The notes: a model not told the origin generated them from the letters alone. DNA of 42,509 nt from a virus (IMGVR_UViG_3300010939_000103), one strand, 5' to 3'; counted from the first letter of the stretch, positions 395 through 40,226 are shown. A program made the numbers and translations.

Positions 395-841
395 ATGAGA
401 GAAATCTACGGCGATTTCTTTAACTTACCCTTCCGGTATAAGCTGGTCACCACCAACGGTGACGTGAACATGTATGGTAGGGCTGTAATGGGTAGAGGTA
501 TTGCGCTAGAGGCACGACTCCTGCATCCTAACCTCGACGTGATACTGGCAACAAGGCTCAAGGATGAGGGCCTAACTGTTTCCTACATAGGACTTTTCGG
601 TGAGGTAAATTATTACAGCTTTCCCGTAAAGTACCACTGGCGAGAGCGAGCGGTACCTTCCCTAATCCAGAAGTCCTGTGATAGGCTCCATGTAATAGCT
701 GCAAGCCATCCCGAGACCTCGTATCTTCTACCCCGCCCTGGCTGTGGTAACGGAGGACTGGACTGGCGAGACGTTGAACCTCTATGCAGAAACCTACCAG
801 ACAACGTATTCGTGGTAACTCGATACGAAGGGAGGAGGTAA
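395..841 (+). CDS. Macro-domain (ADP-ribose binding/hydrolase-like) protein
   Basis: 148 aa. LVTTNGDVNMYGRAVMGRGIALEA and PRPGCGNGGLDW match the N..G(x)GIA and GxGxGG phosphate-binding loops of macro domains. Confidence 0.7.
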   Translation: MREIYGDFFNLPFRYKLVTTNGDVNMYGRAVMGRGIALEARLLHPNLDVILATRLKDEGLTVSYIGLFGEVNYYSFPVKYHWRERAVPSLIQKSCDRLHVIAASHPETSYLLPRPGCGNGGLDWRDVEPLCRNLPDNVFVVTRYEGRR

Positions 842-1039: not shown

Positions 1040-1068
1040 TTGACAAGCACACAACTTTATGGTATAAT
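1040..1068 (+). promoter_or_regulatory. Consensus sigma70 promoter P1 (TTGACA-17-TATAAT, extended -10 TGg)
   Basis: TTGACA is at 1040-1045, followed by a 17-nt spacer and TATAAT at 1063-1068, with TGG immediately before the -10. An 8-bp inverted repeat CTGGTGAC/GTCACCAG (1008-1015 / 1029-1036) abuts the -35. Confidence 0.75.
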
Positions 1069-1098
1069 TATACCACATCAAAGGAGGTTCACCTAGCT

Positions 1099-2088
1099 AT
1101 GCAGCAGTCCACAGCCCTGATAGTCCCTGAAAGGCGTCACTATCTTGTCCCTGCCAACATCAATCGCCTGCTAAAGGTGATAGATGCAATGACCAACGCC
1201 GGCGAAATCCGCAACGTGTTGGTCAAGGGTCCGCAAGGTAGTGGCAAGTCGGACCTAGTAACCCAGTTCGCAGCCACTAGAAAGCGACCGCTCGCAACGT
1301 TGGAGGTTGGGCGTCTGTCAGAGTCCACCCAAATCTTTGGACAGATGCAACTCCGCGATGGCAAAACCGTCTACGAGTCTGGCCTTTTCACGGAGGCCCT
1401 CCAGACCCCCCACGCAGTAATCCATCTTCAGGAAATCAACCGCCCAGAAACCGACAAGGCGCTCAACGCCATCTTCTCTGTACTGGACCCCACGTTCAGG
1501 AACATCTATATGGATGAAATGCACGCTACCATCAAGGTGGCTGAAGGCGTGACGTTCTTCGCAACCATGAACGAGGGCTTTGAGTTCATCGGCACCATGC
1601 CTCTCGACGCAGCGTTGGAGAACCGCTTTGCCATCAAGCTGAACCTCAGCTACCTTCCTCCTGAGCAAGAGCGTGGTCTCATAGCCATCCGCACAGGGTT
1701 AAACCCAGGCCTTACCGTTAGCCTGATTTCCATGATTACCAGAATCCGCAACAACCCCCAGGCTCCTATCACGGTAAGCATTCGAGACTCCCTAGCGATG
1801 GCAGAACTGATGGCCTATGGGCTAAGCGTGGCGGATGCCATCCGCACGGTGATAGGCTCCGACAAGGACAAACTAGAGTCTCTCCTTGCGACTGAACACA
1901 TGGCTGGTCACGACGTAAGCTTTGCCTCAGATGAGGCTTACGAGTTGATGTCACCTCCAGATGCCCGACCTGTGCAGATTACCACTGAGGGCTTTGGAAT
2001 AACTAGCCCCGCTAACACCTATGAAGGCTATAAGGGGCCAGTCGTTACTAGTGCTGATATTCCCCGCGACCAAATGAGGCTCTCCTAA
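1099..2088 (+). CDS. AAA+ ATPase, MoxR/CobS-like
   Basis: Walker A is GPQGSGKS and the Walker B-like segment is AVIHLQEINRPE. The ATG at 1099 lies downstream of P1 and of AAGGAGG (1081-1087). The track start at 1027 lies upstream of the promoter. Confidence 0.88.
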   Translation: MQQSTALIVPERRHYLVPANINRLLKVIDAMTNAGEIRNVLVKGPQGSGKSDLVTQFAATRKRPLATLEVGRLSESTQIFGQMQLRDGKTVYESGLFTEALQTPHAVIHLQEINRPETDKALNAIFSVLDPTFRNIYMDEMHATIKVAEGVTFFATMNEGFEFIGTMPLDAALENRFAIKLNLSYLPPEQERGLIAIRTGLNPGLTVSLISMITRIRNNPQAPITVSIRDSLAMAELMAYGLSVADAIRTVIGSDKDKLESLLATEHMAGHDVSFASDEAYELMSPPDARPVQITTEGFGITSPANTYEGYKGPVVTSADIPRDQMRLS

Positions 2089-4010
2089 TGACCACCCCAA
2101 CAAGCCTCACTGAACCCCTGTCCCATAACTGGAGGATAAATACCTCCGACATACCAGCCATAGAACTGGCCAATGCCCTGCGTGGACTTGCTAAGGTGGT
2201 TGGAATACTGGACAAGGACACCAAAGATGTGGTCTTTTCCACATCGTCCTTCAACTCCCATAAGCACGGCATAGTGGCTATAGACGCGGCCTATGCCCTA
2301 AAGAAACAGCCAATATCAGTAGCGGATTTTGATGTCCTCACAGGGCTAGCCGTCCACGAGGCTGGTCATACGGTAATTGATTCCCATAGAGTTGCCCACA
2401 CCGGGGACCTCGATAAGCAAGGCATTAACGTCAGCGACGACGAGATAACCATAGCCCACGTTTCCGCTGTTGGCGAGGATATCTATAACGACAACTATAT
2501 CCGTCGCCACCACCCAGTACCCTTCCGTTACATTCAACGAGCCCGGAGGGCCTACGGTGCCGACCAAAAGGACATCAACTGGGCTCGCTCCATGATAGCT
2601 TGGACCGCAACCGTGCTCTACGGCAAGCTACCTTACGATAAGACACCACCTCGCGTTATGCAAGCCCTGGCCATCCTTATGACCTATACATCAGACCTTT
2701 CATCCAGGGACATACGACCGGTATCAAGGGAGGTCATATACCAGCGAATCTACAATGACCTAAAGCCCCTGATAGAAGGAGAGCAAATCCGTAAGAAGCT
2801 ATCCTCCAAAGGTGCAGAGGTAGGCGACGAGCACAAGGAAACTTGGGAGGACAATCTTCAAGCGGATAACGCTGAGCAGGAGGTCTTTGACAGGCCAGAA
2901 GTTAAAGCCAACGAGCCGCCGGAGAAGGAGAATGCTGAGGAAGATGCTAGTGAACCTACCGCTGAAGGTCCTGATGGTGAGGGTTCTGGGATTCCGTCTA
3001 ATGAAGCTCCTCCCGAGGGGCCTAAGGGCAAAACTACACCTTCGGAAAACCCAGCAGGAGATGCAGACGATGCTGAGGAAGATGAGTTAGGCGATTCGGA
3101 GGAGGGAGAACAGGATGATAAGGACGTGGAAGCTGAACCACCTAGAGGAGTAGAACTTCTCAACTCTACCCATACCCCCATCGACAAGAAACTCCGCAAG
3201 GCCATCAAGGAAGCCTACGAAAGTGATGCCGAGGATATGACCCAGGACATACAGGATATCCTCGAGGAGTACGAAGTAGATAAGTCAGGGCTTCAAGAAC
3301 GCCTAGGCAAAGGTAGTCTCTCGGTAGTTTGGAGCCGGCCTAACCGCAAACCTAACTCTGCCTTCGACCCTAATCTCTATAGGCAGTTGGTTTGGGTCCA
3401 GCAAATCCGCAATACCCTAGGCAAGGAAATTTACCGCGCAGAACCTCAGGGCAGGGTGGATGCCCACCGCCTCTACCGCGCTCCCATAGACGGCAACGCT
3501 TTCAAGGTAACTAGACGAAAGCCTCGAAAGGACTTGGACCTCGTACTGCTACTTGATGCCTCAGGCTCCATGAACAGCGACGCTAACTCCATCTACGAAG
3601 CCGCGAGAGCCCTCTATAAAGCCCTACCCATGGCCAACGTGGTAACCTACAGTGCAATGGGCTCCAACGTTGACCTACAGCACGTGGCTCGTAAGGGTGA
3701 ACCCTTCAAGTCATTTGAATGTAACGGTGGTACTCCATCTGGGATGGCTCTACTAGCCACGGCCAAGATGTTCCCTAAGAGCCTCATTATCCACTTCACT
3801 GATGGCGGCAGCAACACCGACCTAAGACCCTCCGATGCCTTCCCCATCATCGCCAGGGAATTCCCAGAGGTCCAGATAGTGGATATTGTGCAGAGAGGCG
3901 CACGTGTGGAAAGCACATCGCCCAACGTAAGTAGGGTAAACATTACCTCACCCAACGAGTTTCCGGAGGTTTTGAAGAAGGCCTTGCGTCCCTGGTACCA
4001 AGCGGCATAA
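2088..4010 (+). CDS. HExxH (zincin-like) N-domain + acidic linker + C-terminal vWA domain protein (CobT / DUF2201-like partner of the AAA+ ATPase)
   Basis: 640 aa. The start overlaps the upstream stop (TAATG). The N-terminal part carries AVHEAGHTV. A long Asp/Glu/Pro-rich low-complexity stretch follows. The MIDAS motif reads LLLDASGSMNS, with downstream GGTPSG and FTDGGSN. Confidence 0.85.
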   Translation: MTTPTSLTEPLSHNWRINTSDIPAIELANALRGLAKVVGILDKDTKDVVFSTSSFNSHKHGIVAIDAAYALKKQPISVADFDVLTGLAVHEAGHTVIDSHRVAHTGDLDKQGINVSDDEITIAHVSAVGEDIYNDNYIRRHHPVPFRYIQRARRAYGADQKDINWARSMIAWTATVLYGKLPYDKTPPRVMQALAILMTYTSDLSSRDIRPVSREVIYQRIYNDLKPLIEGEQIRKKLSSKGAEVGDEHKETWEDNLQADNAEQEVFDRPEVKANEPPEKENAEEDASEPTAEGPDGEGSGIPSNEAPPEGPKGKTTPSENPAGDADDAEEDELGDSEEGEQDDKDVEAEPPRGVELLNSTHTPIDKKLRKAIKEAYESDAEDMTQDIQDILEEYEVDKSGLQERLGKGSLSVVWSRPNRKPNSAFDPNLYRQLVWVQQIRNTLGKEIYRAEPQGRVDAHRLYRAPIDGNAFKVTRRKPRKDLDLVLLLDASGSMNSDANSIYEAARALYKALPMANVVTYSAMGSNVDLQHVARKGEPFKSFECNGGTPSGMALLATAKMFPKSLIIHFTDGGSNTDLRPSDAFPIIAREFPEVQIVDIVQRGARVESTSPNVSRVNITSPNEFPEVLKKALRPWYQAA

Positions 4011-4028: not shown

Positions 4029-4781
4029 ATGCGCATCTTTTCGCTCCAGGACCTCTTGATATGGAAACCCGCCCCAGTCAAGCAAGTTATAGGTAGTGGG
4101 GTCCTCCTAGCCCAGACCAAGCTGGTAATCTTTGGGGCTCCTAAAACTATGAAGAGCCTCATTGCCCAGCAACTAGCCTTCTGCCTCGGCACAGGCTCCC
4201 CATGGCTCGGCTTCTCCACGGAAATGTCCCGTATCCTCTACGTACAAGGTGAGATTAGCCAGATACCTTTCCGCGGCAGAGTAGTCCAAATGAGCCGTAA
4301 CGCCACCCTGCCCCCCAACGCCCTGCACTTCGCCACAGAGTTTGGACTAAAGCTCGACCGAGACTCTGGAATGGACGAACTTAAGAAGGGGCTTGATTCC
4401 ATAGCACGTAGGTACAAGGCCCCTATAGAAGTGCTAATGGTAGACCCGCTCTATAAGTTCGTCTCAGATTCCAGTGAAAGCTCCATACAGAGGATGGTTG
4501 ATAACCTTGATATCCTACTGGATAGAGAGAACATCACCCTAGTCATGGTCCACCACTCCCGCAAAGCCCAACTCACAAGCTCAGGGGCTGTGGTTGATAT
4601 GGGCGGTGCAGAGTTGAGAGGCCCCCTTATCGAACAATGGGCTGACTCCATCATAAGGGTGAGAGGCGATATAAGCAGTGACCATAGGGTTCTTGACTTT
4701 GAACTCCGCAACGCCACCTCACTCCTTAATCCCATAAACATAGAACTGGACCGCAAGCGTCTTTGGTTCAACACAGTATAG
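4029..4781 (+). CDS. RecA-fold ATPase (AAA_25 / RepA-DnaB-C-terminal-like), probable replicative helicase or loader
   Basis: Walker A is GAPKTMKS, Walker B is IEVLMVDPLY, and LVMVHHSRK follows. Confidence 0.75.
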   Translation: MRIFSLQDLLIWKPAPVKQVIGSGVLLAQTKLVIFGAPKTMKSLIAQQLAFCLGTGSPWLGFSTEMSRILYVQGEISQIPFRGRVVQMSRNATLPPNALHFATEFGLKLDRDSGMDELKKGLDSIARRYKAPIEVLMVDPLYKFVSDSSESSIQRMVDNLDILLDRENITLVMVHHSRKAQLTSSGAVVDMGGAELRGPLIEQWADSIIRVRGDISSDHRVLDFELRNATSLLNPINIELDRKRLWFNTV

Positions 4782-4798
4782 GATAATGCACCTAACTC

Positions 4799-4827
4799 TT
4801 GACAAGCACTTCCCTCTGTGCTATAAT
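4799..4827 (+). promoter_or_regulatory. Consensus sigma70 promoter P2 (TTGACA-17-TATAAT)
   Basis: TTGACA is at 4799-4804 and TATAAT at 4822-4827. It shares the 11-mer TTGACAAGCAC with P1, and TGC precedes the -10. Confidence 0.75.
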
Positions 4828-6794: not shown

Positions 6795-7169
6795 GTGACT
6801 ACAGAATTGGAATGGGCCTACCTGGCAGGACTGATAGACGGAGACGGCCATGTGAGGGCCAAACTCATGCAGGCTCCAGATGGTAGGCTGAGAAGAGATA
6901 TAGTTATTTGCATTGCCCAGGGCAATATGCACCTTGAGGTGATAGAGTGGCTTTGCGAGCATATAGATGGTGGAAGGGTGTATTCCCAAGGTGACAATGC
7001 CACACAATGGCGTGTTAATAAGCTGAGAGACTTCGACCTAATACTATCGAGGATACTACCATATGTAGTACTAAAGAAGCCAGAGGTTGAGTCGGCACTT
7101 ATTATGGTAGAGGGTCGTAGGGAATTCCTGAGGCGAAGGGCCTTAGGGGAAACCTTCAACGGAGGTTGA
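6795..7169 (+). CDS. LAGLIDADG homing endonuclease, single-motif (homodimer type), free-standing
   Basis: 124 aa with a GTG start. The N-terminus WAYLAGLIDGDGHV is a canonical LAGLIDADG motif. The stop lies 1 nt before the next ATG. Confidence 0.85.
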   Translation: MTTELEWAYLAGLIDGDGHVRAKLMQAPDGRLRRDIVICIAQGNMHLEVIEWLCEHIDGGRVYSQGDNATQWRVNKLRDFDLILSRILPYVVLKKPEVESALIMVEGRREFLRRRALGETFNGG

Positions 7170-13711: not shown

Positions 13712-14158
13712 ATGTGGCTGGTATACTGCTCTGAATGCGGTCCTGTCCACATAGGAAGCATTAAACGCGATGCATTTAGGCTTGCACACAAGCATCCTCA
13801 TCCAGCATTCTGTGGTAAGGTGGAAGCGCCTAGACAACCTCAGGTCTACTTTAGAGAGGACGAGGATATGGTAGGTACGACGATAGGCCTGGCGATAAGA
13901 GACCTAGCCTCACCCATACTTAGGAGCCTTACAAGTCCCTCAAATGTGGTACTGCATGAGGAAATGATGAGCTCCTATGTATTCAATACACCCTACTCAA
14001 CCTCAAGACTCAGGGACCTAGAGGAAGAGATGGAAGCAAGATATGGAAGTCTCGGTCCTATTTCCCTAACATCAACGTATAAGCCTGAGTCGGATGTAAT
14101 CCATGTAGTCGTTACGCAAAGGCGCCAACAAGTAATGGGAGGAGGCAGACATGGTTGA
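13712..14158 (+). CDS. Hypothetical protein
   Basis: 148-aa ORF with AGGAGG 8 nt upstream. Confidence 0.65.
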   Translation: MWLVYCSECGPVHIGSIKRDAFRLAHKHPHPAFCGKVEAPRQPQVYFREDEDMVGTTIGLAIRDLASPILRSLTSPSNVVLHEEMMSSYVFNTPYSTSRLRDLEEEMEARYGSLGPISLTSTYKPESDVIHVVVTQRRQQVMGGGRHG

Positions 14159-14579
14159 ACGAGTTTCATGGGACCGCTATTTTCTTAACATCGCTAAGGA
14201 GGTTTCGACAAGAGCCACATGCAGCAGAGCGTCGGTGGGTGCGGTTTTAGTCCAGGGTAATAGGATACTTACCACGGGCTATAACGGAGCCCCTCCAGGT
14301 ATGAGGCATTGTGACCACGACAATATAACTGGAGGAGGTGGCGACGTAGTTGATAACCATTGTACCGTGGCCATCCATGCGGAAGTCAATGCCGTTGCTC
14401 AGGCAGCCGCCATAGGCGTCTCGGTGCATAGGGCCACATGCTATCTATACGATACCCTGTATAGAGGTCAAAACTGCCGCAACTGCACCCAGATACTCCT
14501 AGCAGCAGGTATAGATATAGTGAAGCGCCTTGATGAAAAGGGCATGGTTGTTCATCTATATCTTCCTGACCTCTACTAA
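14151..14579 (+). CDS. dCMP (deoxycytidylate) deaminase
   Basis: WDRYFLNIAKEVSTRATCSRASVGAVLV, GYNGAPPG, the zinc motif HAEVNA and the later CRNC are typical of the ComEB/dCMP deaminase family. Confidence 0.9.
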   Translation: MVERVSWDRYFLNIAKEVSTRATCSRASVGAVLVQGNRILTTGYNGAPPGMRHCDHDNITGGGGDVVDNHCTVAIHAEVNAVAQAAAIGVSVHRATCYLYDTLYRGQNCRNCTQILLAAGIDIVKRLDEKGMVVHLYLPDLY

Positions 14580-29539: not shown

Positions 29540-32416
29540 CTAGGCCTTGGTAGGCTCTCCCTTCACAAGGTCACTGTAGTCATTCCAGAGGTCGGGCTTA
29601 TCCTTGCGGACGTGCTCATAGGCCTGTGTGAAGGTAGTATCCTTGTTCTCCTCCTGATATTTCTTGACCTCCCCCATGAAGGTGCCCTCGTCAGTGGCAT
29701 TTCCATTGGAAAGACTCGCAGAGAAGATGCCTAGAGACTTAGCCTTCACATCGGTCTCCTTCCAGGCCTTGAGGATATCCTCAGCGGTTTCTGTACCCGC
29801 AGACTCCTCCATCTTCACCAGCTTATTCGCAAGCTCGGTCGGAGTACCTGGAATGGCTTTGATTCCAGTCACCTCCTCACGATAGTGGCTAACGCGCGAG
29901 TTGTGTTTGAGAATCTTGTTCTCTTCCTCAACCGCCTTTAGCCTAGTATTGACCTCCGCGAAGCTAGAGCCGCCCTGACCGCTGGTTAGCTTGGTCACCG
30001 CGGCCACCACATCGCTCTCGGAGGCGCTCTCATGGAGCCCAAGAACCTTGGTCAGTTCGCCTTTCATCTGTTCCTCCTCTTTACTTACACTGCTTACACT
30101 GGTTCGTGAGGCGCTCTTGATGGTCTCGCCTTCCTTCAAACTTCCTTTAGCGGACTCTTTGGCCTCCTCCTCCGTATCGCCACTCACATGAAGAGCCCTG
30201 CCCTCACTGGTCACAACTGTCCAGGTACCATGCTCGTCGAATTTCGCCATGAGTGCCTTGGCCTCCTCCTGGAAGGGAATTGATGGGTCAATGCTACGGA
30301 TGAACCTAATAGCCTTAGCGATAAGGCTCTTCTCGTCCTCCTGCTCGATATCCACCTGGGCGACCATCCCTAGGGCCTGACCTGGGTTAATAGCGCCATC
30401 CGTGAGAGAGCCAAGAATTTCCTTCAAGGCCCTGCGGGTCTGCTCGACTTCAAAGTTAAGTGGCTTTTTCATATACTCCTCAAACTCCTGAAGGAGCACA
30501 TTGGCGTCCTCCGGGTGGGGAGGCTCGGATGGGTCCCTTCTACGGAGGAATCTGATAACCTTATGGGCGAGGGTTTCTTCCTCATCAGTCTCAATACCCT
30601 CACGTACCTCCCCAATCTGGCGCAGAGCCTGAGACTGTGAAATGGCCCCATTGGCAACTGCCACTATGATTGCGTTCAGCGCTTGTCGGGTCTGTTCTAT
30701 CCCGAAGTTGGCACTCAACTTAGAATCCTCCTCAAACCACTTGAGCCTGCCAACTACACCGCCAACATTCAGCAGAGGCTTACCACTAAGGAGCCTCCTA
30801 CCTAGCACCACGCCTGCTATGGTACCTAGAACGGTACCCAGAGGCCCAGTAGCACTTAGGAGGAAGTTCTCCGTAACCCTTAGCCCTATTCGTCCAGCAG
30901 AAACCTCATCAGGAGCAGATACGGTGGCGATGATTCTACGGTTACGCCCTGGGTCATTGATAGGTACATCCCAGACCTTATGCCCGTCCTTTTTACCTTC
31001 AGCGGTAGCCTCAGGCATAGGAATGTGAATCTGGCCTGATTCATTGAACTTGTAGAACTTGGGAGGAGTATGGACCTTGGCCTCAAAGAGAAGCATAGCG
31101 GGCTTAGTGCCATCCTCAAGGAGGGTAGCCTCCTGTAATGGTGCGAGGTCCTTGAGAGCAGGCCTCTGACCGCCTAGCAGCGCTATCCCACTAATGACAG
31201 GGCCATCATCCTGGTGAAGAATCTCCAGGGAGACGGAATTGAAGAACTCGTCCTCAACGAGACTGGCAACCTTCTCGTGGAGTTCCATATCCACGGTAAG
31301 TTTGTCGCCATTGAAGTTGACGCCTGAAACCTGGCCAAGTCTCGCCATGCCTGTGCCGCCATCGCCCTGTAACACCTCCATAGGAAGTCCCAACGCTTTG
31401 GCTATGGCATCGTTGTGCTCTGGGGAACTATGGCCTAGCTTGACAGGGACATCACCTGGTATGCCCTTAGCGAAGGCGCCTACCATGTAATTCATTTCAT
31501 CGTGGGTCCAGTTGCGGGAATTTCCCTGGGAGTCAATGTGGGTGCCTGGGGAGAAGGCCTCAACGCCCATGACAAAGCGTTTCTTGGCCACAGCACCTTG
31601 CTCGAAGAGGGACTCATTGAAGGACCTTCGGCTCTTGGCGATTGCCTTAATGACGGTTGGCGCCGCTCCAATAGCTACTCCTGCAGCTACGGATGCTTTC
31701 GCGCCTAAGCCTAAAAGCCCTTTACCCGTTGCAAGCCTTTTTAGGGCCCCAGAACCCCCCGACCCCGCAATAGAGGCCTTAAAGGGAGGTGTTAACTTCG
31801 TCTTGCCTGCCCGCTTAATGGCCTCCGCCTTAGCATCATCTTCGGAGTCGGCAGAAATCCTGAGCACTATAGCATGGCCCTTAGCACCGTGGACACGGAC
31901 CTTAAAGGTCTCCTTCTTGGACTCCTTCCCTTTCTTCCCTCCCCCAACCTTTCTCTCAATCGCACGAGAAGCCCGACGGAACCTCTCTTGGTCCTCCTTT
32001 GGCAGGTCCTTGAGCCCTATCGTTCTTATCTCGCCACTAGGCAACCTGACCCTAACCGTGGGTTCATCCTGGAAGTCCTCTTCATCCTCGTCGTCGGAGA
32101 GTTCCTCCACCACAGGCTCATCATCCTCATCAAAGTCAGTGTGAAGGACATCAAATACGAGGTCTAGCGCCTCATCCGTGAAAAACTCAGGGTCAATACC
32201 ACCAAGAGCCACCTCCACGTCGGAGGCAGCCTCTTCGGACATTTCCTGAGGGAACTTCCCGGTAATCTTCTTATGGGTAGCAGCGCAGTAGCCCTCAGGA
32301 CTATCTTTGTCCTTATTAGCAGCTACACAGGCGGCAAAGTCTTTGTAGGGTCCAAAAGGCACGCTTGCTCCCTTACCCATGGCGGTAGGTATGTGGACAT
32401 CACTTAAATCTACCAT
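29540..32416 (-). CDS. Head maturation protease / scaffold polyprotein (Mu gpI-like protease core, C-terminal coiled coil)
   Basis: 958 aa. The N-terminus carries YKDFAACVAANKDKDSPEGYCAATHKKITG. The mid part FSPGTHIDSQGNSRNWTHDEMNYMV...PVKLGHSS...ARLGQVSGVNFNGDKL...FFNSVSLEI fits the Mu-I-type prohead protease pattern. An internal ~80-aa tandem repeat and a Lys/Glu-rich helical C-terminus follow. Confidence 0.75.
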   Translation of the reverse strand: MVDLSDVHIPTAMGKGASVPFGPYKDFAACVAANKDKDSPEGYCAATHKKITGKFPQEMSEEAASDVEVALGGIDPEFFTDEALDLVFDVLHTDFDEDDEPVVEELSDDEDEEDFQDEPTVRVRLPSGEIRTIGLKDLPKEDQERFRRASRAIERKVGGGKKGKESKKETFKVRVHGAKGHAIVLRISADSEDDAKAEAIKRAGKTKLTPPFKASIAGSGGSGALKRLATGKGLLGLGAKASVAAGVAIGAAPTVIKAIAKSRRSFNESLFEQGAVAKKRFVMGVEAFSPGTHIDSQGNSRNWTHDEMNYMVGAFAKGIPGDVPVKLGHSSPEHNDAIAKALGLPMEVLQGDGGTGMARLGQVSGVNFNGDKLTVDMELHEKVASLVEDEFFNSVSLEILHQDDGPVISGIALLGGQRPALKDLAPLQEATLLEDGTKPAMLLFEAKVHTPPKFYKFNESGQIHIPMPEATAEGKKDGHKVWDVPINDPGRNRRIIATVSAPDEVSAGRIGLRVTENFLLSATGPLGTVLGTIAGVVLGRRLLSGKPLLNVGGVVGRLKWFEEDSKLSANFGIEQTRQALNAIIVAVANGAISQSQALRQIGEVREGIETDEEETLAHKVIRFLRRRDPSEPPHPEDANVLLQEFEEYMKKPLNFEVEQTRRALKEILGSLTDGAINPGQALGMVAQVDIEQEDEKSLIAKAIRFIRSIDPSIPFQEEAKALMAKFDEHGTWTVVTSEGRALHVSGDTEEEAKESAKGSLKEGETIKSASRTSVSSVSKEEEQMKGELTKVLGLHESASESDVVAAVTKLTSGQGGSSFAEVNTRLKAVEEENKILKHNSRVSHYREEVTGIKAIPGTPTELANKLVKMEESAGTETAEDILKAWKETDVKAKSLGIFSASLSNGNATDEGTFMGEVKKYQEENKDTTFTQAYEHVRKDKPDLWNDYSDLVKGEPTKA

Positions 32417-32448: not shown

Positions 32449-32703
32449 CTAACCTCTGTCAACCAGTTTGATTCCCTGGATATAACGTTGCAGTCGCTCG
32501 GACACGTATTTGGGAGCAAGGTTCACGTTAGAGGCTATTTCTTCTATGGTTGAGCCATTGATAGAGAGCTTGTAGATGGTTTGGTCCCGCAGGTATGCAC
32601 GGAAGCTCCTAGCATCATTAAATTCCAAGCTGCACCTGGAAAATGGACAGGTATCGCAGTTGTCATGGAACTCGCAGCCATTCCTAAGAGATAGGACTCC
32701 CAC
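32449..32703 (-). CDS. Cys4 + helix-turn-helix small protein
   Basis: 84 aa. The cysteine pattern is C10-x5-C16-x2-C19-x4-C24. The HTH-like segment is STIEEIASNVNLAPKYVSERLQRY. It overlaps the portal 3' end by 20 nt. Confidence 0.6.
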   Translation of the reverse strand: MGVLSLRNGCEFHDNCDTCPFSRCSLEFNDARSFRAYLRDQTIYKLSINGSTIEEIASNVNLAPKYVSERLQRYIQGIKLVDRG

Positions 32704-34078
32704 TAGGGCCTCCTGGAGGTGGCTCCTGTGGGCTAGGTTCAGGTGCGGGTTGCGTTTCTGTCCCTACAGCACCAGGCTGTATGCCCTGGTTGCCTAGACC
32801 AGCCTCCTGCTTACGTAGGGCTAGTTCAGCGTTCCGCTGTAGTAGCTCATCACTAATCGGTGGCAGGTCTAGCTCAATCCTAATCATCCTCTCGATAGTG
32901 GGGTCAGGCGTCAAGAGGTTATTGGCTATAAGGACCTGATAGGCCTGTGCCAGGGTCTGGAGATTGCGCCTGGCGGGATTAAGCCATGCTAGCACGGGCC
33001 TTTTGTCCTCTGGAAGGCCGTTAAAGTCAAAGAGGTATGGGATTAGCTGTCGGTTCCACACCTCAAGCATTCTCCTCTGAATGGACCGAAGCGCAGCACC
33101 AAAGAACGTGGTCATTTCACGGGCGAGCGCCTGGGAGCCTATATTCTCAGAGCCAAGGGCCAGGAAGTCAGCGAAAAACCTTTGACGGATGGTATGCTGC
33201 CAGTCGCGGATAATGGCCCTTAGATTATAGGCCTTGGAGCTGCTGCGATATGCCTCTATTTTGAGTTCGTTAGGTAAAATCAAGTACGAGGATTCATCCA
33301 TCCTCAGGCCCTCTAAGGTATCCTTCAAGGCGGTAAGCTCTGCGGTGGTATAGAAGCCAGGCCCAAGAGTGGCAATTGGTACGTTTCCAACATCGCGCTC
33401 GGCGCCAATAGCCTCTATGACCTCTAGGTTGGACTTGAAGTACCATGGCCTGTAGAGGCTCCTAAAGAGGGACTTGCCCATAGGGTCCCGTTTACGTGGC
33501 CTAAACGTAAAGTGGAGAAGTTTCTCCATGGGGGCCTCACGAACAAAGGTCTCGCGAACAACCCTCTGTTTGAAGCTCTTAGGCCTACCAAGGTCATCTA
33601 GCTCCCCCCACTCATATAGGGTCTCCTGGCCAACAGGCAGCAACGTTGCTATATGAATCTTTCCATCGCTTCGCTTCTCCATAACCTTTTCAGCCAGAGC
33701 GAAGCCAAAGTCCAAGAACTCCAACATATCGTCAATGTGCTCACCCCAAGGGAAGGTATGGTTGTTAAAGAGGTCCTTCTGCAAAAAGTCAGCGGCACTC
33801 TGAGCCTCGTCAGAGTCATCAGCGGCTCTGACCTCGAAAGGAGCTGCCATCATAGGAGTCTTGATAGCCTCCATCATGGCACCAATAACAGCGTCATCCT
33901 GCATCTGGCGATAGACGTTAAAGGTCTTTTGCCAGAACTTTAGCTCATTGAGGTACTCCTCAGTAACGCGGCCATGCCAAATGGAAAGGCCTGTTCCCAA
34001 TAAGGCCTCATTTCGTTCCGTGTCCTTGGTACCAGCAAAATCCTCTACTTTGGCCTCTGGTCCGTTTTGGCTAGTCAT
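32684..34078 (-). CDS. Portal protein (Mu gp29/DUF935-like)
   Basis: 464 aa, directly downstream of TerL. WQKTFNVYRQMQDDAVIGAMMEAIKTPMMAAPFEV is a portal-type N-region. Confidence 0.85.
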   Translation of the reverse strand: MTSQNGPEAKVEDFAGTKDTERNEALLGTGLSIWHGRVTEEYLNELKFWQKTFNVYRQMQDDAVIGAMMEAIKTPMMAAPFEVRAADDSDEAQSAADFLQKDLFNNHTFPWGEHIDDMLEFLDFGFALAEKVMEKRSDGKIHIATLLPVGQETLYEWGELDDLGRPKSFKQRVVRETFVREAPMEKLLHFTFRPRKRDPMGKSLFRSLYRPWYFKSNLEVIEAIGAERDVGNVPIATLGPGFYTTAELTALKDTLEGLRMDESSYLILPNELKIEAYRSSSKAYNLRAIIRDWQHTIRQRFFADFLALGSENIGSQALAREMTTFFGAALRSIQRRMLEVWNRQLIPYLFDFNGLPEDKRPVLAWLNPARRNLQTLAQAYQVLIANNLLTPDPTIERMIRIELDLPPISDELLQRNAELALRKQEAGLGNQGIQPGAVGTETQPAPEPSPQEPPPGGPSGSPIS

Positions 34079-35451
34079 TGGAGCCTCCCAGTAAAGCGCC
34101 TATCCCCGACCCCATGCGAGCGCCAATCTCGGGGAGGAGCACTTAGGTTACCTCTAGTAGCTCGACCCGACGCCAATGTCTGCGACGGCGAGGTTCTCTG
34201 CGCGTAGCTAAAAAGGACATACCTCTTCGCATCCATACCGTGGTTATCCTTGTCCTGCGGGATTTCCTTAAGGTTCTTGCCTGATACGGACTTTTGCCAG
34301 AGGTAAGCACCTAACTCCTCGGCCGTACATGTAGGTAACTTCTCAGCCCTCAAGCCCTCATCAACCTCCAACAGTGCATCCCGAAATATGTGGACATGGT
34401 TCTTGGCTATAAGACTATAAACCTCTTGTACACCCGCACTGATGTCCTTAAGCGCCTGAGTTGTCTGTACGCCCTGCTGCTCGAGGATGGCTCTATCACC
34501 ACTATCCCAGTCAGAGAAGGAGGCTAGAAGTAGACGGTGCTCCTCAGGGAATGTGTTAGCGATGATTTTTTGTGCATGGATATTTACGGCAATCCTTGAT
34601 TTATAAATTTCCTTGTAAAGGTACCAGCCACCAAACGATGGATTTTCCAATGAAAAGGAGTCCGGGCACCTTGCCCACCACTGACATACGAATGGATTGG
34701 TGTAGCCAAAGTCGATGCCCCTGAATCGGGGCCAATCAAGGGGAATAGGAAAGGGGTCAATGATACCCTCTCGCGGGTCCCAGTTATCGTAGACCAGGCC
34801 CTCGAATCCTACCCACCTACCTAGCACATAACGTTCGTAGTAGAGGCCAGAAAACCCTTGAAGCCGGTCAATATAGTCCTGAGGCAGATAAGGGTTCTCC
34901 AAGGAGTTAGCCTCAATTACCTGACCCCTATGCTCCTCGTAGAAGTGCTTATAAAGGTAATGGCTAGGTGCTCCTGGGTTGGTGGCGATGAAAAGCTGCC
35001 TAAAAGGCACATCCCTCAGTCTTAAGCGTCCTTCCAGCATCCTATAGTCATCGTCATCCAGTTCTATGCCTTCATCAACGAAAATCCATCCAAACTGGGT
35101 GGAACCAAGCTTTAGCGGGTCGTCGAGGCCAAGAAAGAGGATTTTAGACCCATTCACCAACTCACAGACGCTGGAGACCTGATTCCAGTGCCTAACGTTC
35201 TCTGGCGGACAGACTTCGCGCCACCAGGTCTCCATAGTAGAATACTTAAGGCTCACGTGGGTCTTACGGATGATGGCGCCATAGTTATTAGGGTATTTGG
35301 TTGAGAGAAAGTAGCCCTTCTCGCAGCCGGCACGCGATTTCCCGGCGGCAAAGGCCCCTGAGTACAGAACCTCCGGGGACGTGGACTCCATGAATGCCCT
35401 TTGCTTAGGCATCCTAGAGGTATCGAAGTAGTGGCTAGTTTGAGTGGTCAT
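34075..35451 (-). CDS. terL: Terminase large subunit
   Basis: Walker A is SGAFAAGKS and Walker B is GWIFVDEGIE. The C-terminal RNaseH-like nuclease carries GIDFGYTNPF and DNHGMDAKRY. Confidence 0.92.
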   Translation of the reverse strand: MTTQTSHYFDTSRMPKQRAFMESTSPEVLYSGAFAAGKSRAGCEKGYFLSTKYPNNYGAIIRKTHVSLKYSTMETWWREVCPPENVRHWNQVSSVCELVNGSKILFLGLDDPLKLGSTQFGWIFVDEGIELDDDDYRMLEGRLRLRDVPFRQLFIATNPGAPSHYLYKHFYEEHRGQVIEANSLENPYLPQDYIDRLQGFSGLYYERYVLGRWVGFEGLVYDNWDPREGIIDPFPIPLDWPRFRGIDFGYTNPFVCQWWARCPDSFSLENPSFGGWYLYKEIYKSRIAVNIHAQKIIANTFPEEHRLLLASFSDWDSGDRAILEQQGVQTTQALKDISAGVQEVYSLIAKNHVHIFRDALLEVDEGLRAEKLPTCTAEELGAYLWQKSVSGKNLKEIPQDKDNHGMDAKRYVLFSYAQRTSPSQTLASGRATRGNLSAPPRDWRSHGVGDRRFTGRLQ

Positions 35452-38048: not shown

Positions 38049-38077
38049 TTGACAAAACAGTTATTTTGTGGTATAAT
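38049..38077 (+). promoter_or_regulatory. Consensus sigma70 promoter P4 (TTGACA-17-TATAAT, extended -10 TGg)
   Basis: TTGACA is at 38049-38054 and TATAAT at 38072-38077, preceded by TGG. Confidence 0.75.
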
Positions 38078-39671: not shown

Positions 39672-39814
39672 TTGTCCATGTAGTGATGGAATTCGATATC
39701 GACGCTTATACCGAGGAAGATGCAGTTGAGGAAGTGGAGAGTTGGATTCCCTACGAGTATTTCCTCAACTGCAACATAGAGGTGAAAGGAGAAGCTAATG
39801 GTAACAAAGCCTGA
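39668..39814 (+). CDS. Small early protein (48 aa), RFEI...EEA family-like
   Basis: The start couples to the upstream stop by an ATGA overlap. The translation begins MIVHVVMEFDIDAYTEEDAVEEVESWI.... Confidence 0.5.
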   Translation: MIVHVVMEFDIDAYTEEDAVEEVESWIPYEYFLNCNIEVKGEANGNKA

Positions 39815-40226
39815 AAGGTTCTCTGAGCTTTCCCGTCAAGTGCTATCAAATACAGAGGATGAGGCTAGGAACCTTAACCACATAAACATTGACACAGCCC
39901 ATATCCTGCTGGCCATGCTAAAGATACCTGCCTGCACCTCTGCATATATCCTGGCCAGCCTAGGCGTGGACCTAGCTGGGCTAGTCAAGGCCATCAAGAG
40001 TGACGCAGGGAAGGGCCATAGGCCAGTAGAGGTCTCAGGCTTAAGTCTGCTATCCAAGAATGCCATCACCCTGGCCGTAAAAGAAGCCTCTCAGTCAGGC
40101 ACAATTCTTATCAACCACCTACTTATTGGTATAATGCTGGAAGGTGAAGGAACCGCTGCACACGTACTGTCAGAAGCTGGCATAACAGTAGGTGAAGTCA
40201 GGGAGGCTACAAGGAGTCTCAAATGA
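39798..40226 (+). CDS. Stand-alone Clp N-terminal (ClpA/B/C R-domain) double-repeat protein
   Basis: 142 aa. Repeat 1 is RFSELSRQVLSNTEDEARNLNHINIDTAHILLAML. Repeat 2 is LSKNAITLAVKEASQSGTILINHLLIGIMLEGEGTAAHVLSEAGI. Together they match the ClpC NTD pattern RFT..A..vl..A..eA..lgh..igTEHiLLGl..EGeGvAa..L. No AAA module follows. Confidence 0.85.
   Translation: MVTKPERFSELSRQVLSNTEDEARNLNHINIDTAHILLAMLKIPACTSAYILASLGVDLAGLVKAIKSDAGKGHRPVEVSGLSLLSKNAITLAVKEASQSGTILINHLLIGIMLEGEGTAAHVLSEAGITVGEVREATRSLK

What the first reader, a model, noticed from the sequence alone, without database searches (positions are those of the whole stretch)
1040..4010. Promoter-driven MoxR/CobS-like AAA+ ATPase paired with an HExxH + vWA (MIDAS) protein
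A consensus promoter drives a MoxR-type ATPase (GPQGSGKS). Overlapping it is a 640-aa partner with three parts:
- an N-terminal zincin-like HEAGH motif;
- an acidic disordered linker of about 100 aa;
- a complete MIDAS vWA domain (DASGS, T, D).

AAA-MoxR/vWA pairs act as chaperone or remodelling modules, for example CobST and metallopeptidase-vWA DUF2201-type pairs. They have also been proposed as components of biological-conflict systems. Their role in phages is unresolved. The metallopeptidase-like motif suggests a regulated protease rather than a chelatase.
Basis: partly seen in the sequence, partly recalled or inferred. Interest (0 to 1): 0.65.

Follow-up and report, generated by a model that had tools for sequence, protein, structure and literature searches.

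The report
Phage MoxR ATPase with CobT-like partner
This phage carries an ATP-driven motor gene followed by a tethering partner built like the bacterial CobT and NorD helper proteins but with an intact zinc-protease-type motif; such pairs are already known in phages, and what they act on is still unknown.

Summary
A perfect sigma-70 promoter (1040-1068) precedes a 329-aa AAA_5/MoxR-class ATPase (true start ATG 1099). It overlaps (TAATG) a 640-aa protein with HEAGH, a 118-aa acidic disordered linker and a complete MIDAS vWA domain.

The partner has the CobT/NorD adaptor plan:
- an N-domain of one helix, a three-stranded sheet and a helical bundle, the layout reported for CobT_N ("M48C-like");
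- a disordered linker;
- a pore-inserting "shaft";
- a vWA domain.

It is homologous end to end to phage "CobT-like/peptidase" proteins (hhalign 99.6%). It is not a CobS/CobT orthologue and not DUF2201. No CobN-sized gene is in the genome.

HExxH is intact in 49 of 49 members of the window's sequence cluster. It has decayed in 28 of 48 members of the cluster holding the cellular relatives, and is absent from bona fide CobT. So the metal site looks functional in phages, but protease activity is unproven.

The pair is as conserved as the replication genes of this phage group, always just upstream of an AAA_25 helicase-like gene. Equivalent pairs in four other phage groups also sit among or near replication genes.

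Verdict: a divergent new member of a known kind, with unknown client. Moderate interest.

The parts
1040..1068 (+). Sigma-70 consensus promoter: TTGACA, 17-nt spacer, TATAAT, with TG just before the -10 hexamer.
   Evidence: 12 of 12 matches. One of four perfect copies in the window, 0.01 expected by chance. Perfect copies also lie upstream of the ATPase gene in L012/L019 and L015. Promoter activity is inferred, not measured.
1081..1087 (+). Shine-Dalgarno sequence AAGGAGG, 11 nt before ATG 1099.
   Evidence: Read directly from the sequence.
1099..2088 (+). MoxR-class AAA+ ATPase (motor), 329 aa. Walker A at residues 44-51; Walker B reads VIHLQE; sensor 1 N158, Arg finger R176, sensor 2 R229.
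   Evidence: Pfam AAA_5 1.4e-16 over the full model. PDB sequence hits: midasin 1.5e-19, NorQ 1.3e-12, CbbQ 1.2e-6, CobS 7e-3. phrog_249 (CobS-type) 6.7e-28. 43-50% identical to the ATPases paired with the partner's homologues.
2086..2090 (+). TAATG stop/start overlap between the ATPase and partner genes.
   Evidence: Translational coupling is inferred.
2088..2819 (+). Partner N-domain (residues 1-244): helix 23-41, strands 47-51/55-57/62-66, HExxH helix 78-96, then a helical bundle.
   Evidence: AF2 model with pLDDT 93.7 and pTM 0.90. The top 11 BFVD matches include proteins named CobT or cobalamin-biosynthesis, vWA-domain proteins and unnamed ones; among them are the N-terminal piece of HHTV-2's split CobT and Cantare gp56, which follows a CobS-like gene. 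TM-scores (normalised to the query) 0.45-0.61. Same secondary-structure order as the CobT_N crystal structure. No Pfam or PDB sequence match.
2355..2369 (+). HEAGH (residues 90-94), the candidate metal-binding or catalytic motif.
   Evidence: Invariant in the phage clade. Intact in 49 of 49 members of the window's cluster, against 20 of 48 in the cluster holding the cellular relatives.
2475..2492 (+). E130-D-I-Y-N-D135 on helix 122-141, the candidate third metal ligand.
   Evidence: E130 is present in 148 of 149 aligned members and D135 in 123 of 155. The matching motif (I/L)EDxRI(E/D) occurs in five cultured-phage CobT-like proteins. The ligand role is inferred.
2817..3170 (+). Acidic disordered linker (residues 244-361).
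   Evidence: pLDDT below 50. 41 D+E against 8 K+R in 118 aa. Matches the linkers of CobT (about 90 aa) and NorD (residues 242-393, functionally essential).
3408..3530 (+). Pre-vWA 'shaft/finger' (about residues 441-481): strands 446-452 and 472-477 with a short helical turn between them.
   Evidence: hhalign against Rhizobiales CobT: 96.3%, E 1.8e-9, residues 448-500 aligned to CobT 377-433, which spans the CobT shaft Q373-R413. G455, D458 and L462 are invariant. Insertion into the ATPase pore is inferred by analogy.
3537..4010 (+). vWA domain with a complete MIDAS site (D490, S492, S494, T549, D572).
   Evidence: Best solved-structure match is NorD in the NorQD complex, 9qhe_G, E 9.1e-8. VWA_CoxE 9.7e-5, below the Pfam cut-off. 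MIDAS residues are invariant.
4029..4781 (+). AAA_25 (RepA/DnaB-like) ATPase. It is the third gene before the next perfect promoter at 4799 and always follows the pair downstream, directly or after one to three small ORFs. A possible functional partner, not shown.
   Evidence: Pfam AAA_25 2.6e-22. The order ATPase, partner, AAA_25 is conserved in all loci long enough to show it. Next promoter at 4799-4827.

Best explanation
The two genes encode a motor-adaptor remodelling machine of the NorQ-NorD / CobS-CobT type. It is expressed from a strong host-type promoter together with the phage's replication genes.

Proposed mechanism:
- The 329-aa ATPase forms the AAA+ ring.
- The 640-aa protein is its adaptor. 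Its N-domain docks on the small (lid) subdomain of an ATPase subunit.
- A beta-hairpin 'shaft' just before the vWA domain inserts into the ring pore.
- The MIDAS face of the vWA domain, together with the cleft of the N-domain, holds a client protein.
- ATP-driven movement is passed through the acidic linker to remodel that client.

Unlike bona fide CobT, the phage N-domain keeps an intact HExxH...E site. It therefore most likely binds a metal ion, and it may cleave or metallate the client. The client is unknown. Gene position points to an early, replication-linked target rather than a virion protein or host CobN.

What is shown: gene structure, domain architecture, homologies and conservation patterns. 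What is inferred: complex formation, shaft insertion, metal binding, catalysis, timing of expression and the client.
For: Class of the motor:
- AAA_5 61.2 bits.
- NorQ, CbbQ, midasin and CobS are the PDB sequence hits.

Class of the adaptor:
- N-domain, 118-aa disordered acidic linker, pre-vWA hairpin and MIDAS vWA. This is the plan reported for CobT and NorD.
- The shaft and MIDAS region aligns to the CobT shaft at 96.3%, E 1.8e-9. A PDB profile search hits CobT 9uka_G at 2e-9.
- The best solved fold for the vWA part is NorD bound to NorQ, E 9.1e-8.
- The protein is homologous end to end to phage CobT-like proteins: hhalign 99.6%, E 2e-23 over 535 columns.
- The top 11 BFVD matches of the N-domain model include proteins named CobT, vWA-domain proteins and unnamed ones.

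The two genes behave as a unit:
- They share a TAATG overlap.
- The ATPase gene directly precedes the partner in every phage and cellular locus where the upstream DNA is present.
- Paired ATPases are 43-50% identical even when the partners are only 23-40% identical.

The metal site is functional in phages:
- HExxH is intact in 49 of 49 members of the window's cluster and 36 of 37 members of the other small clusters. It is intact in only 20 of 48 members of the cluster holding the cellular relatives.
- Five cultured-phage CobT-like proteins keep HExxH plus EDxRI(E/D).
- Rhizobiales CobT lacks HExxH; by eye the corresponding stretch reads GDSMAL.

Early, replication-linked role:
- The pair opens the transcription unit that ends with the AAA_25 gene, on the strand carrying exonuclease, Sak4-like, methyltransferase and PolA genes. 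The virion genes lie on the other strand.
- This order is collinear across about 12 related phage contigs.
- In T4-like phages S-PM2 and HTVC008M the analogous pair lies beside or within a few genes of the clamp and clamp loader. In Cyrano it directly abuts DnaE. In Cantare it lies in the same region as DnaB, ThyX and DnaE, and in GMA6 a few kb from a putative helicase.
Against: - No experiment exists on this or any phage pair in the searched literature.
- The N-domain has no significant match to any solved peptidase. The best is the ArdC metalloprotease domain at E 0.32.
- No Pfam zincin model matches.
- The N-domain cannot be linked to bona fide CobT_N by sequence (hhalign 0.3%). That link rests on matching secondary-structure order and on viral intermediates.
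- The Walker B motif has Gln where Asp is canonical, so ATPase kinetics may be unusual.
- Collinearity within one phage group is partly shared descent, not proof of functional linkage to replication.
Confidence: 0.55

Rival explanations
1. It is a genuine cobaltochelatase helper. Phage CobS/CobT would take over host CobN to raise cobalamin supply, the auxiliary-metabolic-gene reading used for phage cobST.
For: - phrog_249 'porphyrin biosynthesis' 6.7e-28 for the ATPase.
- The shaft and vWA region is homologous to CobT.
- The overall plan matches CobT.
- The hypothesis is stated in the literature.
Against: - The CobS equivalog model scores 18.5 bits against a cut-off of 558.
- NorQ and midasin are much closer to the ATPase than CobS is.
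- No homology to the CobT N-domain is detectable.
- In CobSTN the CobT N-domain contacts CobN through its sheet and the beta3-alpha2 loop. Here that domain is a different sequence family with a conserved HExxH.
- No ORF in the genome exceeds 973 aa, and CobN is about 1,200 aa (my own knowledge). Among the ORFs scanned against Pfam or PHROGs, none matched ribonucleotide reductase or any cobalamin-related family; many ORFs were not scanned.
- The cellular relatives sit next to radical-SAM, FKBP and ThiS genes, not cob genes.
- From my own knowledge, not tested here: a pelagiphage of SAR11, a host that lacks B12 synthesis, carries the analogous pair.
Confidence: 0.08
2. It is a virion-assembly chaperone with peptidolytic processing of structural proteins, as proposed for the MoxR plus metallopeptidase-vWA pair of group 2.2 jumbo phages and by analogy to the ATV tail system.
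For: - The proposal and its precedent are.
- The architecture is the same (MoxR plus HExxH-vWA).
Against: - The pair lies in the early/replication block under its own sigma-70 promoter. It is on the opposite strand from terminase, portal, protease and tail genes.
- The same holds in about 12 relatives and in five other phages, where it sits among or near replication genes.
- The genome already has a prohead protease domain at 29540-32416.
Confidence: 0.08
3. The HExxH is a non-catalytic relic. The N-domain would be only a docking and client-holding domain, as in CobT, and the module a plain chaperone.
For: - CobT_N has an M48C-like fold used only for binding.
- In the cluster holding the cellular relatives, 28 of 48 members have lost HExxH. 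They still keep S12, W15, R16, S20, D82 and E130, which are more conserved than the motif.
- No significant fold match to an active peptidase.
Against: - HExxH is intact in 49 of 49 members of the window's cluster, which are representatives of clusters at 50% identity and share about 30-40% identity with the window protein over the N-domain.
- It is intact in 9 of 9 phage loci and in 5 of 5 unrelated cultured-phage proteins. A relic would have decayed there as it did in the cellular copies and in CobT.
Confidence: 0.15
4. It is a conflict or takeover device. The adaptor would capture a host defence or housekeeping protein through MIDAS and inactivate or cleave it early in infection.
For: - Early position under a strong promoter.
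- MoxR-vWA systems with peptidase effectors occur in conflict systems.
- Neighbouring phage genes look like host-manipulation genes: a Clp_N protein and a phrog_335 protein.
- A relative carries Acb5 nearby.
Against: - No PADLOC match of note.
- The pair is as conserved and as fixed in position as the replication genes, unlike typical fast-turnover counter-defence genes.
- Cellular relatives look like maturation factors.
Confidence: 0.12

Closest known systems
Phage 'CobS / CobT-like' pairs (cyanophage CobS plus the gene annotated 'peptidase'; the MoxR plus metallopeptidase-vWA pair of jumbo phages; cobST of archaeal tailed viruses)
   Same: - A MoxR-class ATPase next to a 580-780-aa protein with an N-terminal HExxH...E[DE]xxx[DE] domain, an acidic stretch and a MIDAS vWA domain.
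- hhalign 99.6% to P0012/14/15.
- The N-domain fold matches viral CobT-named and vWA-domain proteins.
- They sit among or near replication genes.
   Different: - This is a separate sequence family. The partner has no tblastn hit in 50,697 phage records.
- The partner's only PHROG hit covers residues 328-581, so the N-domain is uncovered, and no Pfam model matches it.
- ATPase identity to phage CobS is only 27-32%.
- Gene order is ATPase then adaptor, the reverse of S-PM2, HTVC008M and Cyrano.
- The host genome here is about 42 kb, not a large myovirus.
CobS-CobT of aerobic cobaltochelatase (Brucella CobSTN; PDB 9uka series; bioRxiv 10.64898/2026.07.21.739949)
   Same: - Motor-adaptor logic.
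- The adaptor consists of an N-domain (helix, three-stranded sheet, helices), a roughly 90-aa disordered acidic linker, a shaft and a vWA/MIDAS domain.
- The shaft region is homologous.
   Different: - CobT lacks HExxH; by eye the corresponding stretch reads GDSMAL.
- The N-domains are not alignable by profile methods.
- The ATPase is not a CobS equivalog.
- No ORF is long enough to be CobN.
NorQ-NorD (FeB insertion into nitric oxide reductase; PDB 9qhe; PMC13036017)
   Same: - NorD is the closest solved fold for the vWA and finger part.
- NorQ is the closest small MoxR ATPase by sequence.
- The N-domain binds the ATPase lid, the linker is essential, and the finger sits in the pore.
   Different: - No nor genes and no membrane client in view.
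- In the papers read here the NorD N-domain is not described as an HExxH domain.
- The NorD N-domain did not appear among the fold matches of the N-domain model.
Uncharacterised cellular AAA_5 plus N-domain-vWA pairs (a Dehalococcoidia genome bin and other metagenomic contigs)
   Same: - True family members. The N-domain profile finds 293 representative proteins, almost all 550-700 aa.
- The same overlapping two-gene unit.
- ATPases 43% identical to the window's.
   Different: - No acidic linker of this length.
- HExxH is often degenerate.
- Tandem paralogous pairs occur.
- Neighbours are radical-SAM, FKBP and ThiS genes rather than replication genes.

Membership tests
MoxR-class AAA+ ATPase (Pfam AAA_5; NorQ/CbbQ/CobS/midasin branch) | Match to the AAA_5 model above the curated cut-off | tested here: met
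   61.2 bits against a cut-off of 22, model positions 1-139 of 139.
MoxR-class AAA+ ATPase (Pfam AAA_5; NorQ/CbbQ/CobS/midasin branch) | Walker A GxxGxGK[ST], sensor 1, Arg finger and sensor 2 | tested here: met
   GPQGSGKS at residues 44-51. N158, R176 and R229 are invariant in six paired ATPases. Assigning these residues to sensor 1, Arg finger and sensor 2 is by position, not by structure.
MoxR-class AAA+ ATPase (Pfam AAA_5; NorQ/CbbQ/CobS/midasin branch) | Canonical Walker B hhhhDE | tested here: inconclusive
   Reads VIHLQE (Gln for Asp) in the phage members and HLEE in the cellular ones. The catalytic Glu is kept. Activity is untested.
MoxR-class AAA+ ATPase (Pfam AAA_5; NorQ/CbbQ/CobS/midasin branch) | Adjacent vWA/MIDAS partner gene | tested here: met
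   TAATG overlap. Adjacency holds in all loci with upstream DNA.
Bona fide cobaltochelatase CobS/CobT | CobS equivalog model (TIGR01650) | tested here: not met
   18.5 bits against a cut-off of 558.55.
Bona fide cobaltochelatase CobS/CobT | CobT N-terminal domain (Pfam PF06213 / CobT_N) | tested here: not met
   No Pfam hit in 81 family members. hhalign against 31 Rhizobiales CobT N-domains gives probability 0.3%. Only the secondary-structure order matches.
Bona fide cobaltochelatase CobS/CobT | CobT C-terminal shaft plus vWA (CobT_C) | tested here: inconclusive
   The shaft and MIDAS region aligns at 96.3%, E 1.8e-9, and 9uka_G is hit at 2e-9. Pfam CobT_C does not hit the window protein and hits only 3 of 81 relatives.
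Bona fide cobaltochelatase CobS/CobT | CobN subunit available as client | not testable with these tools
   No ORF longer than 973 aa in the phage, and CobN is about 1,200 aa (my own knowledge). The host is unknown.
DUF2201_N / DUF2201 (metallopeptidase plus VWA-like) | Matches to PF13203 and PF09967 above cut-off | tested here: not met
   DUF2201_N: no hit in any member. DUF2201: 14.6 bits against 26.4, in 1 of 5 members.
Zincin (gluzincin-type) metallopeptidase | HExxH on a helix that follows a beta-sheet, with a third ligand (Glu) on a later helix | tested here: met
   Strands 47-66, helix 78-96 carrying H90/E91/H94, and helix 122-141 carrying E130. E130 is present in 148 of 149 members. The convergence of the three side chains could not be measured.
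Zincin (gluzincin-type) metallopeptidase | Significant similarity to a solved or curated peptidase | tested here: inconclusive
   Best PDB fold match is the ArdC metalloprotease domain at E 0.32. A SprT-like viral hit has E 0.45. No Pfam zincin match, apart from one relative at 0.0094 to Peptidase_U49. CobT_N is described as M48C-like.
Zincin (gluzincin-type) metallopeptidase | Zinc binding and peptide-bond hydrolysis | not testable with these tools
   Needs biochemistry.
Phage CobT-like ('peptidase'/vWA-domain) adaptors | End-to-end homology, shared N-domain fold, pairing with a CobS-like ATPase | tested here: met
   hhalign 99.6%, E 2e-23 over 535 columns. BFVD top 11 hits. Shared HExxH...E[DE]xxx[DE], acidic stretch and MIDAS.

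The most novel reading that the evidence does not exclude
The phage pair is an adaptor-borne, ATP-gated metalloprotease. The MoxR ring would not thread substrate. Instead it would use the shaft and the acidic linker to pull a MIDAS-captured client, a host or phage replication factor such as the neighbouring AAA_25 helicase-like protein or its host counterpart, into the zincin cleft of the adaptor's own N-domain. There the client would be cut or metallated early in infection. This would be a mode of AAA+-coupled proteolysis distinct from chambered proteases. It would also explain why phages keep the HExxH that CobT and many cellular paralogues have lost.
Probability: 0.2. Interest if true: 0.7.

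Novelty: new member of a known kind. Interest (0 to 1): 0.38.

Why it matters
MoxR/CobS-like ATPase plus HExxH-vWA pairs are core genes of marine T4-like cyanophages and occur in many other tailed viruses. Their function has only been guessed: cobalamin synthesis in one paper and virion assembly in another.

This small, collinear phage group gives a compact case in which neither guess fits well:
- no gene large enough to be CobN;
- the pair is not in the structural module;
- the metal motif is strictly kept in phages while it decays in cellular paralogues.

That pattern, together with the new CobSTN and NorQD structures, makes a concrete motor-adaptor-client model testable. Tests could use a trap mutant (E91Q), a MIDAS mutant, or pull-down of the client. 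The practical gain is modest. It would correct a widespread annotation ('porphyrin/cobalamin biosynthesis', 'peptidase') and might reveal a replication-linked remodelling step.

Tried and rejected
- DNA and protein searches of 50,697 cultured phage genomes with the region and with the partner: no match.
- PDB sequence search with the partner and with an N-domain profile: nothing for the N-domain.
- Foldseek of the N-domain model against PDB: nothing significant. TetR-like helical bundles and GPCRs at E above 0.3 are noise.
- PADLOC defence models: nothing meaningful.
- NCBIfam: no family for the partner.
- DUF2201 assignment: rejected.
- Getting CobT N-domains through the protein search returned only C-terminal fragments. 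I took full-length CobT from 80 Rhizobiales genomes instead. Profile-profile comparison of the N-domains was then negative.
- A profile of three phage CobT-like proteins against PDB: not informative.
- The model coordinates are not exposed to scripts, so the geometry of the putative metal site could not be checked.
- Literature searches found no experiment on any phage pair.

Full report
**1. What is in the sequence**

The window is a complete 42.5-kb tailed-phage contig. Terminase (34075-35451), portal (32684-34078), a prohead-protease-containing ORF and tail genes lie on the minus strand. A replication and recombination block lies on the plus strand: exonuclease, Sak4-like protein, methyltransferase and family-A DNA polymerase.

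At 1040-1068 there is a perfect TTGACA-17 nt-TATAAT promoter with a TG just before the -10 hexamer. It is one of four perfect copies in the window, where 0.01 are expected and 0 of 100 shuffles reach four. An AAGGAGG follows at 1081-1087 and an ATG at 1099. The ORF finder's GTG at 1027 lies upstream of the promoter, and homologues align only from residue 1 of the ATG form. The ATPase is therefore 329 aa (1099-2088).

Its stop overlaps the start of the 640-aa gene by one base (TAATG, 2086-2090).
- GPQGSGKS at ATPase residues 44-51;
- HEAGH at partner residues 90-94;
- an acidic segment at 244-361 (118 aa, 41 D+E against 8 K+R, pLDDT below 50);
- DASGS at 490-494, T549 and D572.

**2. The ATPase**

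It matches Pfam AAA_5 over the whole model (1.4e-16). Among solved proteins it is closest to midasin AAA modules (1.5e-19), then NorQ (1.3e-12), CbbQ (1.2e-6) and, weakly, CobS (7e-3). It hits the PHROG that holds phage CobS (phrog_249, 6.7e-28). It scores 18.5 bits against the 558-bit cut-off of the CobS equivalog model.

Residues at the expected positions of sensor 1, the arginine finger and sensor 2 are invariant among six paired ATPases. The Walker B aspartate is replaced by Gln in the phages and by Glu in the cellular relatives. It is a MoxR-class motor, not a CobS orthologue.

**3. The partner**

*Family size.* Only four full-length relatives came up in the word-indexed search of 5.8 billion proteins. 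An exhaustive profile search with the N-domain found 293 representative proteins, almost all 550-700 aa. The N-domain and vWA combination is therefore a real, moderately rare family.

*No curated model.* None of 81 members matches any Pfam model over the N-domain. The partner's only PHROG hit covers residues 328-581, so the N-domain is uncovered there too. There is no PDB sequence match and no tblastn hit in 50,697 cultured phage genomes.

*Structure prediction.* AlphaFold2 with an 81-sequence alignment gives a confident N-domain (pLDDT 93.7, pTM 0.90). It has helix 23-41, three strands (47-51, 55-57, 62-66), helix 78-96 carrying HExxH, helix 122-141 carrying the near-invariant E130 and D135, and further helices. 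The full-length model adds:
- a disordered linker;
- a helical pre-vWA segment;
- a long hairpin (446-452 and 472-477);
- a vWA fold.

*Comparison with solved adaptors.* This is the plan reported in 2026 for CobT. CobT has an N-domain of one helix, a three-stranded sheet and eight helices 'resembling peptidase M48C', an approximately 90-aa disordered linker, a shaft that enters the CobS pore, and a vWA domain with MIDAS. NorD has the same plan: its N-domain sits on the NorQ lid, its linker is essential and its finger sits in the pore.

*Direct tests agree for the C-terminal half.*
- A family profile hits CobT 9uka_G at 2e-9.
- hhalign against 31 Rhizobiales CobT sequences gives 96.3%, E 1.8e-9 for residues 448-500 against CobT 377-433, which spans the shaft and the start of MIDAS.
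- Foldseek's best solved match is NorD in the NorQD complex, E 9.1e-8.

*The N-domain link to bona fide CobT could not be shown by sequence.* hhalign gives probability 0.3%, and PDB Foldseek gives nothing significant (best is the ArdC metalloprotease domain, E 0.32). The link to viral CobT-like proteins is solid:
- hhalign 99.6%, E 2e-23 over 535 columns to P0012/14/15, which hit the 'cobalamin biosynthesis' PHROG.
- The top 11 BFVD fold matches of the N-domain include proteins named CobT or cobalamin-biosynthesis, vWA-domain proteins and unnamed ones. Among them are the N-terminal piece of HHTV-2's split CobT and Cantare gp56, which follows a CobS-like gene. TM-scores normalised to the query are 0.45-0.61.

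**4. Is the HExxH meaningful?**

Over 155 family members, the most conserved positions are not the motif. S12, W15, R16, S20, D82, G86, E130 and Y148 are each 94-100% conserved. H90, E91 and H94 are present in 129, 137 and 125 of 155 members.

The losses are not spread evenly. Clustering 138 N-domains gives this pattern:

| Cluster | HExxH intact |
|---|---|
| Cluster containing the window | 49 of 49 |
| Other small clusters | 36 of 37 |
| Cluster containing the cellular relatives | 20 of 48 |

Further points:
- One of the small clusters was checked and is a 41-kb phage contig with the same gene order.
- All nine phage loci examined keep the motif.
- Five unrelated cultured-phage CobT-like proteins (S-PM2, HTVC008M, Cantare, GMA6, Cyrano) all have HExxH followed 30-45 residues later by (I/L)EDxRI(E/D).
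- Bona fide Brucella and Rhizobiales CobT has no HExxH. By eye the corresponding stretch reads GDSMAL, followed by EQARVEA.

I infer that the domain's universal job is docking, on the ATPase lid and on the client, as in CobT. Phage versions additionally need the metal site. Whether that site cleaves a peptide bond, or merely holds or delivers a metal ion, cannot be decided here.

**5. Context**

The ATPase directly precedes the partner wherever upstream DNA exists, in phage loci and in cellular loci alike. The paired ATPases are 43-50% identical while the partners are 23-40% identical, so the pair is inherited as a unit.

In about 12 related phage contigs the gene order is collinear:
- terminase (minus strand);
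- about 5 kb of small genes;
- ATPase;
- partner;
- AAA_25 helicase-like gene;
- two conserved ORFs;
- exonuclease;
- Sak4-like gene;
- a conserved ORF;
- methyltransferase;
- PolA.

In the window the first three genes lie between the promoters at 1040 and 4799.

Pairs of the same kind also sit among or near replication genes in other phages:

| Phage | Position of the pair |
|---|---|
| S-PM2 | directly between gp46/47 and gp45/44 |
| HTVC008M | a few genes upstream of the clamp and clamp loader |
| Cantare | in the same region as DnaB, ThyX and DnaE |
| GMA6 | a few kb from a putative helicase on the other strand |
| Cyrano | immediately before DnaE |

The genome has no ORF longer than 973 aa, and CobN is about 1,200 aa (my own knowledge). 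Among the ORFs scanned against Pfam or PHROGs, none matched ribonucleotide reductase or any cobalamin-related family; many ORFs were not scanned. The cellular relatives sit beside radical-SAM/4Fe-4S, FKBP and ThiS genes and often occur as tandem paralogous pairs. That suggests enzyme maturation rather than cobalamin synthesis.

**6. Mechanism proposed**

Shown:
- a co-transcribed, overlapping gene pair;
- a MoxR-class motor;
- an adaptor with an N-domain, acidic linker, shaft and MIDAS vWA;
- a shaft homologous to the CobT shaft;
- a metal motif under selection in phages.

Inferred by analogy with CobSTN and NorQD:
- the ATPase forms a hexamer;
- the adaptor's helix 23-41 face docks on the ATPase's last lid helices, where L259, E260 and S261 are invariant;
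- the hairpin enters the pore;
- MIDAS and the N-domain cleft hold a client between them;
- ATP-driven twisting, passed through the linker, remodels the client.

The intact HExxH...E site then acts on the client, by cleavage or by metal transfer. Position and promoter suggest an early, replication-linked client.

My confidence is about 0.85 for the motor-adaptor class. It is about 0.4 that the N-domain is a working peptidase. It is about 0.3 that the client belongs to the replication apparatus. For the explanation taken as a whole (motor-adaptor machine with a functional metal site acting early on an unknown client) I give 0.55.

**7. Rivals**

- *Cobaltochelatase helper using host CobN*. Disfavoured by the failed CobS and CobT_N membership tests, the different N-domain family and the non-cob context of the cellular relatives.
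- *Virion assembly and processing*. Disfavoured by gene position.
- *A vestigial motif.* Disfavoured by the 49 of 49 conservation.
- *A takeover or counter-defence role.* Not excluded.

**8. Novelty**

The kind is already in the literature, read either as cobST or as a chaperone-protease. This is a divergent, previously unmodelled family of that kind in a small phage.

New here:
- the phage-versus-cellular contrast in HExxH conservation;
- the mapping onto the 2026 CobT and NorD structures;
- the recurrent placement among or near replication genes.

No experiment on any phage pair was found.

Noticed in passing
window 39798-40226 (+): A 142-aa ORF is a Clp_N domain protein (Pfam PF02861, 2.7e-16, two repeats). 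A free-standing ClpA/ClpC N-domain in a phage could act as a decoy or adaptor for the host Clp unfoldase.
   Followed up: no
window 1040-1068, 4799-4827, 38049-38077 (+) and 22291-22263 (-): Four perfect TTGACA-N17-TATAAT promoters, three of them with TG just before the -10 hexamer; 0.01 are expected by chance. The phage appears to rely on host sigma-70 polymerase, with a few very strong start points. The first two share the extended box TTGACAAGCAC.
   Followed up: partly
window 395-841 (+): A 148-aa ORF hits phrog_335 'phosphatase' (4.7e-21) but no Pfam model. Its homologue sits between the partner and the AAA_25 gene in L003, so it moves around within this module.
   Followed up: no
window 1099-2088 (ATPase residues 105-112); alignment A5: The Walker B motif reads VIHLQE in the three phage ATPases aligned (window, L001, L003) and HLEE in the three cellular ones. 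The canonical Asp is absent from all six. The window's ATPase also has a C-terminal tail (about residues 295-329) that is absent from its relatives.
   Followed up: partly
L006 46-8166; L008 527-5625; L025 1116-7743: Cellular relatives occur as tandem paralogous ATPase-plus-adaptor pairs. They are flanked by radical-SAM/4Fe-4S genes (L008), an FKBP gene (L006) or a ThiS gene (L025). This is an uncharacterised maturation system in a Dehalococcoidia genome bin and other metagenomic contigs.
   Followed up: no
window 29540-32416 (-): A 958-aa ORF matches a prohead-protease PHROG only over residues 263-430. It is probably a protease fused to scaffold or capsid parts.
   Followed up: no
window 14151-14579 (+) and 6795-7169 (+): A zinc-dependent dCMP/cytidine deaminase (1.3e-17) and a weak LAGLIDADG-like ORF (E 0.005, below the Pfam cut-off) lie in the replication block.
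   Followed up: no
L010 1374-4813 (Escherichia phage Cyrano): The CobT-like and CobS-like genes are annotated 'dimethylbenzimidazole phosphoribosyltransferase' and 'cobalamin synthetase'. This is probably a mix-up with the unrelated Salmonella cobT and cobS gene names, which I infer from my own knowledge. The protein has HEVAH plus a MIDAS site.
   Followed up: partly
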